A stretch of 64,000 bases of DNA from a virus (lineage: Duplodnaviria; Caudoviricetes), in the IMG/VR virus record IMGVR_UViG_3300046167_000724, one strand, 5' to 3'. Positions within the stretch are counted from its first letter, which is position 1; the number at the start of each line of letters is the position of its first letter. This document shows, piece by piece, positions 34,931-39,006 of this stretch. Position numbers and translations under genes: made by a program. The notes beneath the pieces were generated by a model that saw only the letters and a list, made by a program, of their open reading frames with translations, was not told the DNA's origin and made no database searches.

Positions 34931-36244
34931 ATGGAAAAGTTTGGAATAGAAAAAGAGTTAGATGGTATCAAGGTAAGCCTTGAGTCATTTGTTAATTTAG
35001 GGATATTAATACCTGCAATACCAGATTATGAAACTATTGTTGAGATTTATACTAATGAAGTTGTTGGTTTTAAATCAATAATGGTTGAATTAACTGATAA
35101 GTATAAAGAGAAGTATGGTGACGCATGGTCAGAAAAAGAGTCTGAAATTAAAGAGTTAATTGCTGCTGAAAAGAAAAAGACTATTGATTACTATATGAAT
35201 GAAGGTCGTCAATTTTTAGAAGGTCTACATAAAACATTAATTGAAGCTTTTAAAAAATTATTAAAAAAAATTAAAGAAGTTGCAACTGATGTTGTTAAAA
35301 AAGTAACTGAAGCGGTAATGCCCACTACAATTGGAATCGGTGCACCTAACCCATTAAGTATAATATTAAAATTATTTATAGCTATTACTGAAATTAAAAG
35401 ACAATTAGATGTTATAGCATTATTAGGTATTAAGCTTATTGATGTATTTAAGCAAATTGGTATTTTAGATTTAGTAGAAACTATGACTGGTAGTATTGTG
35501 GATTTCAAAAAAAGTATTGATGCTAAGAAGGCAGCGGCTGTAGCTACTGGATCAAAAATAAAAGAAATAGGTACCGGGTTAAACCCAGCAGAACTTAAAA
35601 ATAAACTTGATTGGACTAAAACCATAGACATGTCAACGCCGCTTGGTCAACAAATTACTGCGGTGAAGTCATTAGTAAACACAGTCAAAAGTTCTTCAGA
35701 TGTTGTTGAAAGTAACAACAAGGCTATTGCAAAATCTGAAGCTAAACTTAAAAAGAAACAACAAGCTATATTTAGTGCAAAATACTACGCGGACCAAAAA
35801 ATATTTACAATACCATGGCCGGCTGGTGGTACTGAAAAGCCTGGTAGTGCTGTAATGGAAATTGCAACTAAACGATATGATATTGCATTTACAGATTTCC
35901 CATTAAATGCGGTGCAGATATTACGATTAATTAATAAATCAAATGATATTGAAGTTATTAATGGTCAAGATAGTGATCGTGCATGGCGTGAATTAATTAT
36001 TGATTTTAATAATTATATGAATGGTTATAAAGAATGGGCTAAAACAGCCCGTGAATTTGAAGAAGATGAAAATGGTACAGTAATTTTAGTGTCGGGTAGT
36101 AAGGATAGTGAAAATACCGGGGGCGGTGAACCAGGTAATACTGGTAAAGGCCGTGCTCCTAGTAGTAATAACAAGGGTGGCGTTGGTACTGCTAATGATG
36201 GGAGTGGTGTTAAAACACCTGAGGAAGGTGATAATCCTAAATAA
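34931..36244 (+). CDS. Hypothetical helical virion-associated protein
   Basis: Long ORF directly after the spike gene; coiled-coil and hydrophobic helices. Confidence 0.6.
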   Translation: MEKFGIEKELDGIKVSLESFVNLGILIPAIPDYETIVEIYTNEVVGFKSIMVELTDKYKEKYGDAWSEKESEIKELIAAEKKKTIDYYMNEGRQFLEGLHKTLIEAFKKLLKKIKEVATDVVKKVTEAVMPTTIGIGAPNPLSIILKLFIAITEIKRQLDVIALLGIKLIDVFKQIGILDLVETMTGSIVDFKKSIDAKKAAAVATGSKIKEIGTGLNPAELKNKLDWTKTIDMSTPLGQQITAVKSLVNTVKSSSDVVESNNKAIAKSEAKLKKKQQAIFSAKYYADQKIFTIPWPAGGTEKPGSAVMEIATKRYDIAFTDFPLNAVQILRLINKSNDIEVINGQDSDRAWRELIIDFNNYMNGYKEWAKTAREFEEDENGTVILVSGSKDSENTGGGEPGNTGKGRAPSSNNKGGVGTANDGSGVKTPEEGDNPK

Positions 36245-36314
36245 ATTTAGTTAAAAAGAGGCCCAAAAAAATGGGTTATATAATGTATATTATTCACTTT
36301 CTAACTAAATAAAA

Positions 36315-37643
36315 ATGGAAAACAAAAAAAGAGAACGAATTGGTGCTAAAAAGGTAACCATCGCTCAAACAGAAGACGTACAATCTGTAGAAAATGTACA
36401 AGAAGAAGTAACGGTTAACGAAGATACACGTGGTGGTTTTATGCATGACGACTATGTTCTACCAAACGGCGAATTCGATTGGGACGGTTACGAGCATGCA
36501 TTCAGCCACAAGTTAAGACCTAATTACAAGGTTAAAACTGCAAGTCACAAACATATTGTTTATTCACAAGATGTTGAAGCACAAAATTATTACAACATGA
36601 TCGAATCAACTTCATTTGAAATTGATATGATTACATCACTGGTAGTAGACTCTTATCTTGAGGGTACATTACATTCAATGTCTACTAAATGGGCGACTGT
36701 TAATGTTAACTACCGTGAGATGCTTTACATTGACCTTGATAAAGAAGATGCTGATATCATTAAAGATTACAGACCTGGTGATTCAGTCACTGTAAAGGTA
36801 CTTAGTGATAAAACAGCAGCTCGTGAATATGCAACAGCTTCTATAACTGAAGGCGCTAGACAAGCAATCTTTAATGAGCTTAGACAGGCTACTGAAGATG
36901 GTAGTACTGCATTTATGGGTACTGTTAAATCTATGATTCCAGGTGGTGGTTATATCGTTAAGGTTCAAGGTATTGAATGTTTCATGCCGGGTTCACTTGC
37001 TGGTATTAATAAACTAGCTGATTTTGAATCAATTATTGGTAATGATATGTATGTTGTACCAGATTCATTCTCTGCAAATCGTGGAACTATTGTAGTGTCT
37101 CACAGAGCTTATTTACAAGCTATGATTCCAACGAGTATTGCAAAAATAGAAGAAGACTTTGATGCGGTACATAATGGGTTTGTAACTGGTACTGCTAAGT
37201 TTGGTGTGTTCTGTGAATTTGAAGGTTGTCTAACGGGTATGATTCACGTTAATGATCTAAGTCCAGAATGGGCTGCTAAGCATAAAGGTGGAGATATTAA
37301 CCCAGGCGATGCAATTGACTTTAAAGTTAAAGAGGTTGTTTCTAATAAAAAGATTATCTTAACTCAAGTTGAAAAACAAGAAGTTAAAGAAGATTTATCA
37401 TGGGAAGAGTTTACTAAAGACTTGCAAATTCCTAGTGTGGTTGAAGGTAAAATCCGTTCTGTAAAAGATTATGGTGTGTTTGTTGGACTACATGGTAGTG
37501 TAACTGGTATGGCACATGTGTCTGGATTTGAAAAAGGTATTTCATTAACTGAACGTTTTTCAAAAGGTGATGAGGTTGCTGTTGAGATTACAAAAATCGA
37601 TAACGACACTAAGAAAGTATTTTTAAAGGTGGTTGGAGCTTAG
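36315..37643 (+). CDS. rpsA: Ribosomal protein bS1 homologue (four S1 domains)
   Basis: S1 repeats (GGYIVKVQGIECFMPGS, KFGVFCEF..LTGMIHVNDLS, DYGVFVGL..VTGMAHVS); FDWDGYE resembles the Bacteroidota bS1 N-terminal motif. Confidence 0.85.
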   Translation: MENKKRERIGAKKVTIAQTEDVQSVENVQEEVTVNEDTRGGFMHDDYVLPNGEFDWDGYEHAFSHKLRPNYKVKTASHKHIVYSQDVEAQNYYNMIESTSFEIDMITSLVVDSYLEGTLHSMSTKWATVNVNYREMLYIDLDKEDADIIKDYRPGDSVTVKVLSDKTAAREYATASITEGARQAIFNELRQATEDGSTAFMGTVKSMIPGGGYIVKVQGIECFMPGSLAGINKLADFESIIGNDMYVVPDSFSANRGTIVVSHRAYLQAMIPTSIAKIEEDFDAVHNGFVTGTAKFGVFCEFEGCLTGMIHVNDLSPEWAAKHKGGDINPGDAIDFKVKEVVSNKKIILTQVEKQEVKEDLSWEEFTKDLQIPSVVEGKIRSVKDYGVFVGLHGSVTGMAHVSGFEKGISLTERFSKGDEVAVEITKIDNDTKKVFLKVVGA

Positions 37644-37701
37644 GTTCCAACCAACCTAAAATATATGGTGGATATATATTGAAACAAGATATGATCCTCC
37701 G

Positions 37702-39006
37702 ATGTTAAATCAACAAAATAAAGATGTATTATTAAACTCACAAATTGGGTTTGAGTTTGAATTCTATTCAAATACATCTGTAGAAGAGACTGCTAAATCG
37801 GTTGGGCAACTATTGGGTCGTAAGATTCAAGTAGAAACAAAAGCCCATTCCGATTTTCAGCCTTCTGATAAGGTCTTTAAAATGGAACCTGATATGTCAG
37901 GTGGTGCTGGTCTAATTGAATTAGTTACTGGACCCCTACCGTATACGGATGCTAGGCTTATTGCTATTAAAATGCTTAAGTGGATTGACGAAAATGGTTC
38001 AACAAATGACCGTTGTGGATTGCACTTAAATATCTCATTCCAAAATGGAACTTACGGTAAATACTTTATTACTCATATGAATACACTTAAGTTTGTATTA
38101 GAGTTTAAGGAAGACCAAGTATATAAATATTTCCCACAAAGAGAGGATTTAGTTTATGCTAAATCAATTAAGTACATCTTACCAAAGAATGGCTTATTTC
38201 ATTTTGATGAAAGGTCTGTTAATAAATCTCAATTTAATTATCCCAATACTAAATACTATGGTGTTAACTTCTTAAAGCAGGAGATGGGTTATTTAGAATT
38301 TAGATACCTTGGCGGTAAAGATTACCAAAAGCGTACTAATGATATTTTGCATTTAATGGATGGTTGGATTACACAATTACATAAAATTTGTAGTGAACCT
38401 GGGCTTAATGAGCTGAATAGATTAGAGTTAAGAAGAATTATGCGTGAGATGGGTCCTGTAATAAGCCTGTATCGCGACCACAGGAACTTTAAAAAGTTTC
38501 AAGACATAACCTTTACATTTGACCTAAGCGAGGATGGTGGCAATCGAGGTGAGACTATTGACATGTATTGGGATCAAATAAAAGATAGAGTTATTAAACT
38601 CATTTCCGAAGGTGGTTTAGTTAAGGGTCATATCAACTACGATACTGATAGGTCTAAGGTTCAAATTAAAGATGGTGTATTTAAAGGTGCACATGATTTA
38701 GAACATTACGAAATGGTTAACTGTGAAATTGCGGGCGAAGTTAGGTACAGTGATCTTTATAACTGCAAAATTAAAGGGTCTGACCTTGAAGGTTGTAACT
38801 TATATCAAGGTACTAAATTAACTGATTCAAAAATTAAATCATCATACGTACACCAAAGCTGTGAGGCAAAAGATTCATATGTGTTTGGTAGAGATGGTGT
38901 ATTTAAGGGTAAAATGATAGGTGGTATTTTTAGAGAAGGTAATTATTCTGAAAGCACTGCTAAATTTGATGGTACTGAAATTGTACAGTCAACAAAAATA
39001 AAATAA
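37702..39006 (+). CDS. Putative amidoligase (COOH-NH2 ligase type 2) with C-terminal beta-helix-like repeats
   Basis: IGFEFEF, IELVTGP, RCGLHLNIS, KYYGVN, YLEFRYLGG; C-terminal NCEIAG/NCKIKG/GCNLYQ/DSKIKS repeats. Confidence 0.75.
   Translation: MLNQQNKDVLLNSQIGFEFEFYSNTSVEETAKSVGQLLGRKIQVETKAHSDFQPSDKVFKMEPDMSGGAGLIELVTGPLPYTDARLIAIKMLKWIDENGSTNDRCGLHLNISFQNGTYGKYFITHMNTLKFVLEFKEDQVYKYFPQREDLVYAKSIKYILPKNGLFHFDERSVNKSQFNYPNTKYYGVNFLKQEMGYLEFRYLGGKDYQKRTNDILHLMDGWITQLHKICSEPGLNELNRLELRRIMREMGPVISLYRDHRNFKKFQDITFTFDLSEDGGNRGETIDMYWDQIKDRVIKLISEGGLVKGHINYDTDRSKVQIKDGVFKGAHDLEHYEMVNCEIAGEVRYSDLYNCKIKGSDLEGCNLYQGTKLTDSKIKSSYVHQSCEAKDSYVFGRDGVFKGKMIGGIFREGNYSESTAKFDGTEIVQSTKIK

What the first reader, a model, noticed from the sequence alone, without database searches (positions are those of the whole stretch)
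36315..37643. Four-domain ribosomal protein bS1 inside the tail gene block
Seen: four S1 repeats and a Bacteroidota-like FDWxxYE leader, shorter than the usual six-domain bS1. Phage starts in this window have A-rich leaders without SD. Established: bS1 genes occur in huge phages, and Bacteroidota initiation relies on A-rich upstream context. Inference: it replaces host bS1 to bias ribosomes toward phage late mRNAs. A stable hairpin covers its stop codon (37631-37652).
Basis: partly seen in the sequence, partly recalled or inferred. Interest (0 to 1): 0.65.

Follow-up and report, generated by a model that had tools for sequence, protein, structure and literature searches.

The report
Phage four-domain ribosomal protein S1 copy
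An uncultured marine giant phage carries, among its baseplate genes, a shortened copy of bacterial ribosomal protein S1 that keeps the pieces used to dock on Bacteroidia ribosomes; such phage S1 genes were reported in 2020, so this is a well-supported member of a known kind whose function is still untested.

Summary
ORF 36315-37643 (+) encodes 442 residues: a disordered head, a Bacteroidia-type aromatic FDWxxYE helix, a second helix like the uS2-binding helix of E. coli S1, then four OB/S1 barrels that align with bS1 domains 1-4. The 9-bp hairpin lies exactly at 37631-37652 with the stop codon in its loop.

The gene lies between a gp5-like hub gene and amidoligase/gp13/gp25/gp6-like genes. It has at least 575 relatives in IMG/VR contigs and evolves under purifying selection.

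The FDW motif is found in 24 of 30 Bacteroidia bS1 and in 0 of 33 bS1 from other Bacteroidota classes. A 2026 cryo-EM paper shows this helix of Flavobacterium johnsoniae bS1 sitting on uS8 and uS2. A modelled complex with F. johnsoniae uS2 passed its controls (0.69 against 0.20).

Ribosome docking is therefore likely but not shown. The claimed bias toward late mRNAs has no support: early and late leaders are equally SD-less and A-rich. The hairpin is not conserved in relatives and looks like an ordinary 3' end.

Phage rpS1 is published (Al-Shayeb 2020), and this scan has reported the same family on several other genomes. New details here are frequent co-carriage of bS21 and an invariant amidoligase neighbour.

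The parts
36275..36282 (+). Late-promoter-like box GTTATATA, 33-40 nt before the ATG. It differs by one base from the phage's GATATATA late motif.
   Evidence: GATATATA occurs 10 times on the + strand and 0 times on the - strand of the window, always ahead of late genes. Relatives L056, L058 and L003 have a perfect GATATATA at the same place before their S1 gene. The 97%-identical relative also has GTTATATA.
36283..36314 (+). SD-less, A-rich 5' leader (…ctaactaaataaaa-ATG).
   Evidence: The leaders of S1 genes in five relatives are equally A-rich and lack an SD.
36315..37643 (+). CDS of the 442-aa phage bS1-like protein.
36315..36449 (+). Residues 1-45: disordered extension, with a basic KKRxRI patch followed by an acidic stretch.
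   Evidence: pLDDT is below 50. The KKRxRI patch is shared by most relatives at 44% identity or more, and is absent in some.
36471..36503 (+). Residues 53-63, EFDWDGYEHAF: the Bacteroidia-type aromatic helix.
   Evidence: Predicted helix at 56-62. F54 and W56 are nearly invariant. The motif is specific to class Bacteroidia bS1. In F. johnsoniae bS1 the equivalent helix FLANFNWHNF contacts uS8 on the 30S subunit (PMC13000457).
36549..36605 (+). Residues 79-97, KHIVYS strand plus AQNYYNMIE helix: the predicted uS2-binding segment.
   Evidence: Helix at 89-97. This is the most widely conserved N-terminal element of the phage family (consensus VYSxExYAQxxYN). It resembles E. coli S1 residues 3-12, ESFAQLFEES (L177), whose Phe5 and Phe9 anchor S1 on S2 (PMC4288201). 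It forms the lowest-error contacts in the modelled complex with uS2.
36654..36842 (+). OB domain 1 (residues 114-176), equivalent to bS1 D1.
   Evidence: It is not recognised by Pfam S1, which fits the atypical, protein-binding D1 described for bS1 (PMC4288201).
36912..37100 (+). OB domain 2 (residues 200-262), equivalent to bS1 D2. It is the most conserved part of the family.
   Evidence: The GGYIV…GIECFMPGSLAGINKL block aligns with the bacterial D2 block GG..V…G..AFLPGSQ.
37167..37364 (+). OB domain 3 (residues 285-350), a canonical S1 RNA-binding domain.
   Evidence: Pfam S1 match, alignment to E. coli D3 and the model.
37434..37631 (+). OB domain 4 (residues 374-439), a canonical S1 RNA-binding domain.
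   Evidence: Best Pfam S1 stretch at 374-438, alignment to E. coli D4 and the model.
37617..37664 (+). Long stem-loop whose 9-bp core (37631-37652) holds the TAG stop in its loop. No U-tract follows.
   Evidence: z -5.05. It is identical in the 97% relative but not conserved in position in more distant relatives, which have a canonical terminator or nothing there.
37671..37678 (+). GATATATA late-promoter-like box of the next gene (amidoligase, 37702-39006). It marks the end of the S1 unit.

Best explanation
This is a phage-encoded, highly diverged homologue of ribosomal protein bS1, cut down to domains 1-4. It appears to be made late in infection, as its own short transcript, by a marine T4-like giant phage whose host is most likely a member of class Bacteroidia (Flavobacteriia-type).

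Proposed mechanism:
- Its N-terminal helix-loop-helix and D1 dock on the host 30S subunit at the normal bS1 site. The aromatic FDW helix would sit against uS8. The YAQ-type helix plus D1 would sit against uS2.
- D3 and D4 then hold single-stranded A/U-rich leaders at the mRNA entry to the platform.
- The protein thereby supplements or displaces the weakly bound, exchangeable host bS1, and sustains initiation on SD-less phage messages during the heavy late phase.

Shown here: homology, domain layout, the presence and lineage-specificity of the motifs, synteny, purifying selection, and SD-less leaders.

Inferred: ribosome binding (in-silico support only), late timing (promoter-like motif only), and any effect on translation.

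A selective preference for phage over host messages, or for late over early messages, is possible but has no support here.
For: Homology to bS1:
- NCBIfam rpsA models match at E 2e-39 to 1e-24.
- E. coli bS1 in the PDB matches at E 6e-35, with D2-D4 aligned to D2-D4.
- The best Foldseek matches are E. coli bS1 on the 30S subunit, 9gut_B at E 3.6e-24.

A D1-D4 protein can work:
- E. coli rpsA lacking domains 5 and 6 is viable, and 30S initiation complex formation is only slightly affected (PMC3858243).

Docking elements:
- The FDW helix is kept across the family.
- It is restricted to class Bacteroidia bS1: 24 of 30 against 0 of 33.
- It is the helix seen on uS8 and uS2 in the F. johnsoniae 30S cryo-EM structure (PMC13000457).
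- The second helix resembles the Phe5/Phe9 helix that anchors E. coli S1 on S2.

Modelled complex:
- Residues 46-182 with F. johnsoniae uS2 scored 0.69 against a best control of 0.20.
- That mark was reached by 58 of 80 solved complexes and 2 of 110 mismatched pairs.
- The runs agree in at least 62% of contacts, and the partner's pLDDT is at least 77.
- Contacts lie at residues 79-84, 88-99 and D1, against uS2 residues 32-45.
- A like complex is solved (E. coli S2-S1), so the pass may only show likeness.

Host:
- SD cores occur in 7 of 74 leaders.
- The baseplate protein's only cultured relatives infect Tenacibaculum, Chryseobacterium, Flavobacterium and Prevotella, plus two Sphingomonas phages.
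- A 43%-identical copy lies in a Flavobacteriaceae MAG.

Other support:
- Late unit: the promoter-like box is conserved in relatives, and a 3' hairpin or terminator is followed by the next promoter.
- Selection: 28 synonymous against 9 non-synonymous codon differences.
- At least 575 viral contigs carry a relative.
- Partner gene: 11 of 23 S1-bearing contigs of 40 kb or more also encode bS21. In F. johnsoniae, bS21 stabilises the bS1 N-terminus and is needed for bS1 to stimulate SD-less initiation.
Against: - No experiment exists for any phage S1. Al-Shayeb et al. themselves say that true rpS1 is hard to confirm and that the role may be 'on or off the ribosome'.
- Scores lie far below every curated rpsA cut-off: 123 bits against 577 for TIGR00717.
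- In the D1-D4 tree the phage family is a separate, very long branch. A Bacteroidia origin is neither favoured nor rejected: p-AU 0.22, against 0.19 for the other Bacteroidota classes. The link to Bacteroidia therefore rests on one short motif.
- In this protein and its closest relatives the residue equivalent to E. coli Phe5, which is essential there, is Glu88. Most other family members have Tyr.
- The loop between the two helices is about 25 residues, much longer than in F. johnsoniae bS1.
- The uS2 used in the model is a stand-in from F. johnsoniae, not from the true host.
- Early phage genes have the same leaders and must be translated before this late protein exists. The phage therefore does not strictly need it for its leader type.
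- Related cultured phages of Tenacibaculum, Chryseobacterium and Flavobacterium have no S1 homologue.
Confidence: 0.6

Rival explanations
1. It is an off-ribosome RNA-binding protein. The S1 array would act free in the cytoplasm as a chaperone or protector of A/U-rich phage late mRNAs. Alternatively it would be the RNA-recruiting subunit of a phage enzyme, much as host S1 serves Qbeta replicase and T4 RegB.
For: - S1 domains are ubiquitous RNA binders, and Al-Shayeb et al. leave 'off the ribosome' open.
- Host S1 is a known cofactor of phage enzymes, and its D1-D2 bind the Qbeta replicase.
- Foldseek also finds the Qbeta holoenzyme chains.
- The protein scores far below the rpsA cut-offs and sits on a very long branch.
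- Glu88 replaces the Phe5-equivalent aromatic residue.
- It is always next to an amidoligase of unknown role.
Against: - Two separate ribosome-docking elements are kept under selection across a family that has diverged to about 25-35% identity, one of them specific to the Bacteroidia 30S subunit.
- The modelled uS2 interface passes its controls.
- bS21, a strictly ribosomal protein, is often carried by the same phages.
Confidence: 0.2
2. It is a dominant-negative blocker used for host shut-off. The protein would occupy the bS1 site but, lacking D5-D6 and being diverged, would fail to support initiation on structured host messages. Unstructured A-rich phage leaders would still get through.
For: - The free N-terminal segment of E. 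coli S1 competes with S1 for the 30S subunit and interferes with translation (PMC4288201).
- A viral bS21 built into E. coli ribosomes cut translation to about 5% (PMC6375957).
- D5-D6 are missing.
- Phage leaders are very A-rich.
Against: - D3 and D4 keep the canonical RNA-binding S1 signature and match Pfam.
- E. coli S1 without D5-D6 is nearly fully active.
- The gene looks late, whereas shut-off is usually an early function.
Confidence: 0.1
3. It is a virion-associated protein. It would be made with the baseplate proteins, packed or attached, and delivered into the next cell to prime ribosomes for the early messages.
For: - It has a fixed place inside the baseplate/neck block behind a late-type promoter.
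- It has a disordered 45-residue head.
- This phage carries many proteins with a head-targeting tag (earlier notes on this genome; N-termini seen).
Against: - Its N-terminus (MENKKRERIG…) does not resemble the shared MKxxKxFExF tag of the cargo proteins in this window.
- It has no PHROG structural family.
- No structural fold was found beyond bS1.
Confidence: 0.05

Closest known systems
Putative rpS1 genes of huge phages (Al-Shayeb et al. 2020, Nature, PMC7162821), including LR756500-LR756504 and the Lak phages of Prevotella
   Same: It belongs to the same protein family. The best phage-database hit is LR756500 at 37.7% identity, E 2e-58, and the Lak phages match at about 27%. The genomes likewise lack SD sequences, and the proposed role in initiation is the same. 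The baseplate genes are also related.
   Different: This is a marine lineage about 300 kb in size (CheckV 23% of 72 kb). It has a fixed four-domain form at a fixed baseplate locus. The paper did not analyse docking motifs and called true rpS1 'difficult to confirm'.
bS1 (RpsA) of class Bacteroidia, e.g. Flavobacterium johnsoniae (N-terminal residues 4-40 modelled on the 30S subunit, Roy et al. 2026, PMC13000457)
   Same: An aromatic F[DN]W..[FY] helix precedes a second helix and D1. Examples are 'ADFDWDAYEKG' (L042) and 'EQFDWDSFESG' (L044), against phage 'GEFDWDGYEHA'. The order of D1-D4 matches, with the D2 'AF(L/M)PGS' block.
   Different: It has four domains rather than six. It scores 88-123 bits against Bacteroidia bS1, no better than against other bacteria. 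The inter-helix loop is about 25 residues long. The second helix is closer to the E. coli type than to the Bacteroidia type. It forms a separate long branch in the tree.
E. coli bS1 and its truncated form lacking domains 5 and 6 (Duval et al. 2013, PMC3858243; Byrgazov et al. 2015, PMC4288201)
   Same: The domain content (D1-D4) equals the viable, nearly fully active truncation. The 'AQ-x-aromatic' helix resembles the S2-anchoring helix ESFAQLFEES.
   Different: The Phe5 equivalent is Glu88 in this protein. It has an extra FDW helix and a 45-residue head. Identity over the aligned region is low, and its score is far below the curated rpsA cut-offs.
Phage-encoded bS21 (pelagiphage HTVC008M and many aquatic phages; Mizuno et al. 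2019, PMC6375957)
   Same: It is an exchangeable, loosely bound 30S platform protein carried by large lytic aquatic phages and proposed to replace the host copy. bS21 genes lie on 11 of 23 long S1-bearing contigs of this family.
   Different: It is a different protein. For bS21, incorporation into ribosomes has been shown experimentally. For phage S1 nothing has been.
bS1 of the jumbo cyanophage PhiMa05 (ISME J 2026, PMC13157829)
   Same: It is a phage-borne bS1 gene discussed as a replacement for the host protein.
   Different: PhiMa05 bS1 clusters with Vampirovibrio bS1, which points to a recent capture, and it sits among other ribosomal protein genes. The family here is ancient, long-branched and embedded in structural genes.

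Membership tests
Bacterial ribosomal protein bS1 (RpsA; TIGR00717 and NCBIfam PRK06299 models) | Tandem S1/OB domains, with atypical protein-binding D1-D2 followed by canonical RNA-binding domains | tested here: met
   The model has four barrels. D2-D4 align to E. coli D2-D4. Pfam S1 recognises only D3 and D4. The D2 block aligns with bacterial D2.
Bacterial ribosomal protein bS1 (RpsA; TIGR00717 and NCBIfam PRK06299 models) | Score above the curated equivalog cut-off | tested here: not met
   TIGR00717 scores 123 bits against a cut-off of 577. The best model, NF004952, scores 135 against 524.
Bacterial ribosomal protein bS1 (RpsA; TIGR00717 and NCBIfam PRK06299 models) | N-terminal helix with an aromatic pair that anchors the protein on uS2 (E. 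coli Phe5 and Phe9) | tested here: inconclusive
   A helix at 89-97 with Y92/Y93 is present, but the Phe5 equivalent is Glu88. The modelled complex with F. johnsoniae uS2 scored 0.69 against a best control of 0.20, a mark reached by 58 of 80 solved complexes and 2 of 110 mismatched pairs. A like complex is solved, so the pass may come from memory.
Bacterial ribosomal protein bS1 (RpsA; TIGR00717 and NCBIfam PRK06299 models) | Placement inside the bacterial bS1 tree | tested here: not met
   The phage family is one clade (support 100) on a branch of about 3 changes per site from all bacterial bS1. The donor is unresolved, with p-AU 0.22 and 0.19 for two alternatives.
Bacterial ribosomal protein bS1 (RpsA; TIGR00717 and NCBIfam PRK06299 models) | Physical presence on the 30S subunit | not testable with these tools
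   This needs ribosome fractionation, proteomics or cryo-EM.
Class Bacteroidia form of bS1 | Aromatic F[DN]W..[FY] helix ahead of D1 (FLANFNWHNF in F. johnsoniae, which contacts uS8) | tested here: met
   Residues 54-63 read FDWDGYEHAF. The motif is found in 24 of 30 Bacteroidia and 0 of 33 other Bacteroidota. hhalign gives probability 91% over 14 columns, although those segments were anchored on the motif. The structural role is taken from PMC13000457.
Phage rpS1 of huge phages (Al-Shayeb 2020) | Multi-S1-domain protein homologous to those of huge-phage genomes, in a genome that lacks SD sequences | tested here: met
   tblastn to LR756500 gives E 2e-58, with matches also to LR7565xx records and the Lak phages. 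SD cores occur in 7 of 74 leaders.

The most novel reading that the evidence does not exclude
The phage lineage remodels the mRNA-exit platform of the Bacteroidia 30S subunit with a matched pair of its own exchangeable proteins. These would be a D1-D4 bS1 that keeps the uS8 and uS2 docking helices, and a bS21 that keeps the Bacteroidia-specific tyrosine. The result would be phage-specialised ribosomes for SD-less A-rich leaders. The invariably adjacent amidoligase might be a third, modifying component. This would be a multi-part viral ribosome-specialisation module rather than a single captured gene.
Probability: 0.2. Interest if true: 0.65.

Novelty: new member of a known kind. Interest (0 to 1): 0.38.

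Why it matters
How Bacteroidia ribosomes choose start codons without Shine-Dalgarno pairing is an open question, and bS1 is the prime suspect for reading the upstream adenines (PMC13000457).

A large, ancient phage family has kept a minimal D1-D4 bS1, with exactly the docking helices just visualised on the F. johnsoniae 30S subunit. It often carries bS21 as well. Together these form a natural minimal toolkit that could be tested directly in the existing F. johnsoniae in-vitro system.

It would also give the first evidence on whether phage S1 genes, reported in 2020 but never tested, act on the ribosome. As a finding it is not new: the gene class is published, and this scan has already reported the same family on other genomes.

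Tried and rejected
- PHROGs: no family for the S1 protein.
- Megablast of 15 kb around the gene against the phage collection: no match.
- Own assembly: not held. Only a 72-kb fragment (G001) and a 125-kb fragment (G091) of 97-98% relatives were available. The bS21 gene that a first-stage note places about 94 kb beyond this window could therefore not be checked. No bS21 lies in the window (tblastn) or in G091.
- tRNAs: none in the window.
- Donor phylogeny: unresolved. The quick PMSF tree separated phage from bacteria. Holding phage and Bacteroidia together gave a higher likelihood under that model. Under LG+F+G4 it was 22 log units worse and no better than phage plus other Bacteroidota, and neither was rejected. 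Two longer runs timed out and a background job did not survive between calls.
- Hairpin as an S1-specific regulator: rejected. Relatives have a canonical terminator after the stop, another hairpin, or nothing there.
- Head-targeting tag on S1: absent.
- Sigma-70-type promoter scan: fewer sites than in shuffles, so uninformative.
- Expression: short contigs from three marine metatranscriptome runs (two studies) lie on parts of the gene at 90-99% likeness. DNA carry-over was not excluded and no silent stretch was laid, so this does not show transcription.
- A low-depth record in DNA run X5 appears to join 36330 to 37707 with 18 other letters between (table 5c). It is not listed as a supported joint and was not pursued.
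- hhalign of the second N-terminal helix against Bacteroidia bS1: no alignment beyond the FDW motif.
Full report
**The object.** ORF 36315-37643 on the + strand (ATG to TAG, 442 aa) is real.
- Pfam finds the S1 domain (PF00575, E 1e-19) with two stretches passing.
- NCBIfam rpsA models match at E 2e-39 to 1e-24, but at 85-135 bits against cut-offs of 368-918.
- PHROGs has no family for it.
- phmmer against the PDB puts E. coli bS1 first (E 6e-35). Residues 179-437 align to E. coli 88-344, so the phage barrels correspond to bS1 D1-D4, and D5-D6 are missing.

**Structure.** An AlphaFold2 model built on a 27-sequence family alignment (pLDDT 77.9) shows the following:
- a disordered head at residues 1-45;
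- a short helix at 56-62;
- a helix at 89-97;
- four OB barrels at 114-176, 200-262, 285-350 and 374-439.

Its best Foldseek matches are E. coli bS1 chains on 30S complexes, 9gut_B at E 3.6e-24.

**Setting.** The window belongs to an uncultured marine giant phage.
- The nearest held record is a 72-kb IMG/VR fragment that CheckV rates 23% complete, which implies roughly 300 kb.
- Near-identical DNA occurs in seawater metagenomes of more than ten studies.
- Upstream lie a Phage_base_V (gp5-like) hub gene and a 437-aa gene of no known family. Downstream lie a PF12224 amidoligase and then gp13-, gp25- and gp6-like genes.
- This order is kept in relatives at 46%, 45% and 32% identity.
- In 70 of 70 IMG/VR loci found through the amidoligase that have enough upstream sequence, an S1 homologue ends 60-118 nt before the amidoligase start.

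**The family.** It is large: 1233 hits in the 90% clusters, 128 representatives at E 1e-30 or better, and at least 575 IMG/VR contigs. Against a 97%-identical relative, 28 codon differences are synonymous and 9 are not, where 21% synonymous is expected at random. The gene is therefore under purifying selection.

**Transcription signals.**
- GATATATA occurs ten times on the + strand of the window and never on the - strand, each time shortly before a late-type gene.
- Relatives L056, L058 and L003 have a perfect copy 30-45 nt before their S1 start.
- This window, and its 97% relative, has GTTATATA at 36275-36282, one base off.
- The reported hairpin is exact: stem 37631-37639 and 37644-37652, loop TTAG holding the stop codon. 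It extends to 37617-37664 (z -5.05).
- No U-tract follows it, and the next GATATATA (37671) follows at once.
- In relatives this position holds a canonical terminator (L056, L061), a different hairpin (L060), or nothing (L003, L058).

I read the hairpin as the 3' end of a monocistronic late message, not as a device specific to S1.

**Leaders.** Of 74 called genes, 7 have a GGAG/GAGG/AGGA core at -18..-4, against 4.9% at random positions. A is enriched (0.61 at -3) and G is depleted. The early block (2 of 29, A fraction 0.50) and the late block (5 of 41, 0.46) do not differ. It also removes the basis for a late-specific bias: the same leader type is read before a late protein could exist.

**Host.**
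- The SD-less, A-rich leaders match class Bacteroidia (PMC6847099, listed; PMC13000457).
- The gp6-like protein's cultured relatives are phages of Tenacibaculum, Chryseobacterium, Flavobacterium and Prevotella, plus two Sphingomonas phages.
- A 43%-identical S1 copy sits on a 58-kb contig binned into a Flavobacteriaceae MAG.

**The N-terminal motifs.** F54 and W56 of 'EFDWDGYEHAF' are nearly invariant in the family.
- I sampled rpsA from 61 Bacteroidota genomes and from 31 genomes of the MAG's class.
- [FYW][DNE]W ahead of D1 is present in 24 of 30 class members, with variants in some of the rest. It is present in 0 of 33 genomes outside the class.
- Roy et al. 2026 modelled residues 4-40 of F. 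johnsoniae bS1 on the 30S subunit as a helix-loop-helix bound to uS2 and uS8. They identified the aromatic helix FLANFNWHNF as the uS8 contact.
- They also report that loss of bS21 destabilises this segment, and that bS1 stimulates SD-less initiation only on bS21-containing ribosomes.

The phage therefore keeps a lineage-specific ribosome contact.

A second element, consensus VYSxExYAQxxYN, is the most widespread N-terminal feature of the whole phage family.
- It resembles E. coli S1 'ESFAQLFEES' (L177), whose Phe5 and Phe9 stack on Phe32 of S2 and are essential for ribosome binding (PMC4288201).
- In this protein the Phe5 equivalent is Glu88, while Y92 and Y93 occupy the Phe9 region. That is a point against a fully canonical anchor.

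**Complex model.** Residues 46-182 with F. johnsoniae uS2 scored 0.69, against a best control of 0.20.
- That mark was reached by 58 of 80 solved complexes and 2 of 110 mismatched pairs.
- The runs agree in at least 62% of contacts, and the partner's pLDDT is at least 77.
- Contacts lie at residues 79-84, 88-99 and D1, against uS2 residues 32-45.
- A like complex (E. coli S2-S1) has been solved, so the pass may reflect likeness only. The uS2 is also a stand-in for the unknown host's protein.

**Origin.**
- In a tree of D1-D4 (69 rows) the phage family is one clade (support 100) on a branch of about 3 changes per site from all bacterial bS1.
- Holding phage and Bacteroidia together is not rejected: p-AU 0.83 under PMSF, where it even beat the quick free tree, and 0.22 under LG+F+G4.
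- Holding phage with the other Bacteroidota classes does equally well, p-AU 0.19.
- phmmer scores to Bacteroidia bS1 (88-123 bits) are no higher than to other classes (102-136 bits).

The body of the protein says nothing about the donor. Only the FDW motif ties it to Bacteroidia.

**Partner gene.** Of 23 S1-bearing IMG/VR contigs of 40 kb or more (15-55% complete), 11 also encode a bS21 above Pfam's cut-off. The four I read keep a tyrosine in the C-terminal helix, as in '…QKAIY…'. Tyr54 in that helix of bS21 is uniquely conserved in Bacteroidia (PMC13000457). A first-stage note places a bS21 elsewhere in this phage, and I could not verify it.

**What is known.**
- Al-Shayeb et al. 2020 reported rpS1 in huge phages, noted the lack of SD sequences in those genomes, and cautioned that true rpS1 is hard to confirm. 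The nearest database hits are their genomes and the Lak phages.
- Mizuno et al. 2019 showed that viral bS21 enters E. coli ribosomes.
- E. coli S1 without D5-D6 is viable and nearly fully active.
- This scan has reported the same family on several other genomes with the same reading.

**Verdict.** It is a bS1-derived, D1-D4 protein that most likely docks on the host 30S subunit and supplements or replaces host bS1 late in infection (confidence about 0.6). The late-mRNA bias is unsupported. It is a new member of a known kind, of moderate interest.

Noticed in passing
window 37702-39006 (and L178-L257): A PF12224 amidoligase (30.4 bits, cut-off 22) with its own GATATATA box follows the S1 gene. 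In 70 of 70 related loci with enough upstream sequence, an S1 homologue ends 60-118 nt before it. Whether this is only conserved block order or a functional pairing (for example modification of a ribosomal or virion protein) is open.
   Followed up: partly
L173-L176 (IMG/VR contigs G092-G095) and G099-G102, G107, G108, G111: 11 of 23 long contigs that carry this S1 family also carry a 64-86-codon bS21 gene. In the four contigs where I compared positions it lies about 20 kb from S1. The four I read keep a tyrosine in the C-terminal helix, where Bacteroidia bS21 has its uniquely conserved Tyr54. A first-stage note places a bS21 in this phage too, outside the window; this was not verified.
   Followed up: partly
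window 9859, 25300, 25525, 29248, 33084, 37671, 39873, 44896, 50883, 60101: GATATATA occurs 10 times on the + strand and 0 times on the - strand, each shortly upstream of a late-type gene. It is a likely late-promoter core, a variant of T4's TATAAATA.
   Followed up: partly
window 22222, 23277, 24398, 25554, 60113 (gene starts): Several unrelated proteins begin with a shared MKxxKxFExF-like leader, the head-targeting-like tag already noted by the scan. The S1 protein does not have it.
   Followed up: no
window 36315-36449 (residues 1-45): The disordered head of the S1 protein has a basic KKRxRI patch followed by an acidic stretch. Most relatives at 44% identity or more share it, but one subclade lacks it entirely. 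Its role is unknown.
   Followed up: no
window 36330-37707, DNA run X5: One low-depth metagenome record seems to join the start of the S1 gene to the start of the amidoligase gene, with 18 other letters between. It could be a relative lacking S1 or an artefact of low-complexity gene starts.
   Followed up: no
window 34931-36244: A 437-aa gene between the gp5-like gene and S1 has no Pfam or PHROG family and a Gly/Asn-rich tail. It is absent at this place in relative L058, where S1 directly follows the gp5-like gene.
   Followed up: no
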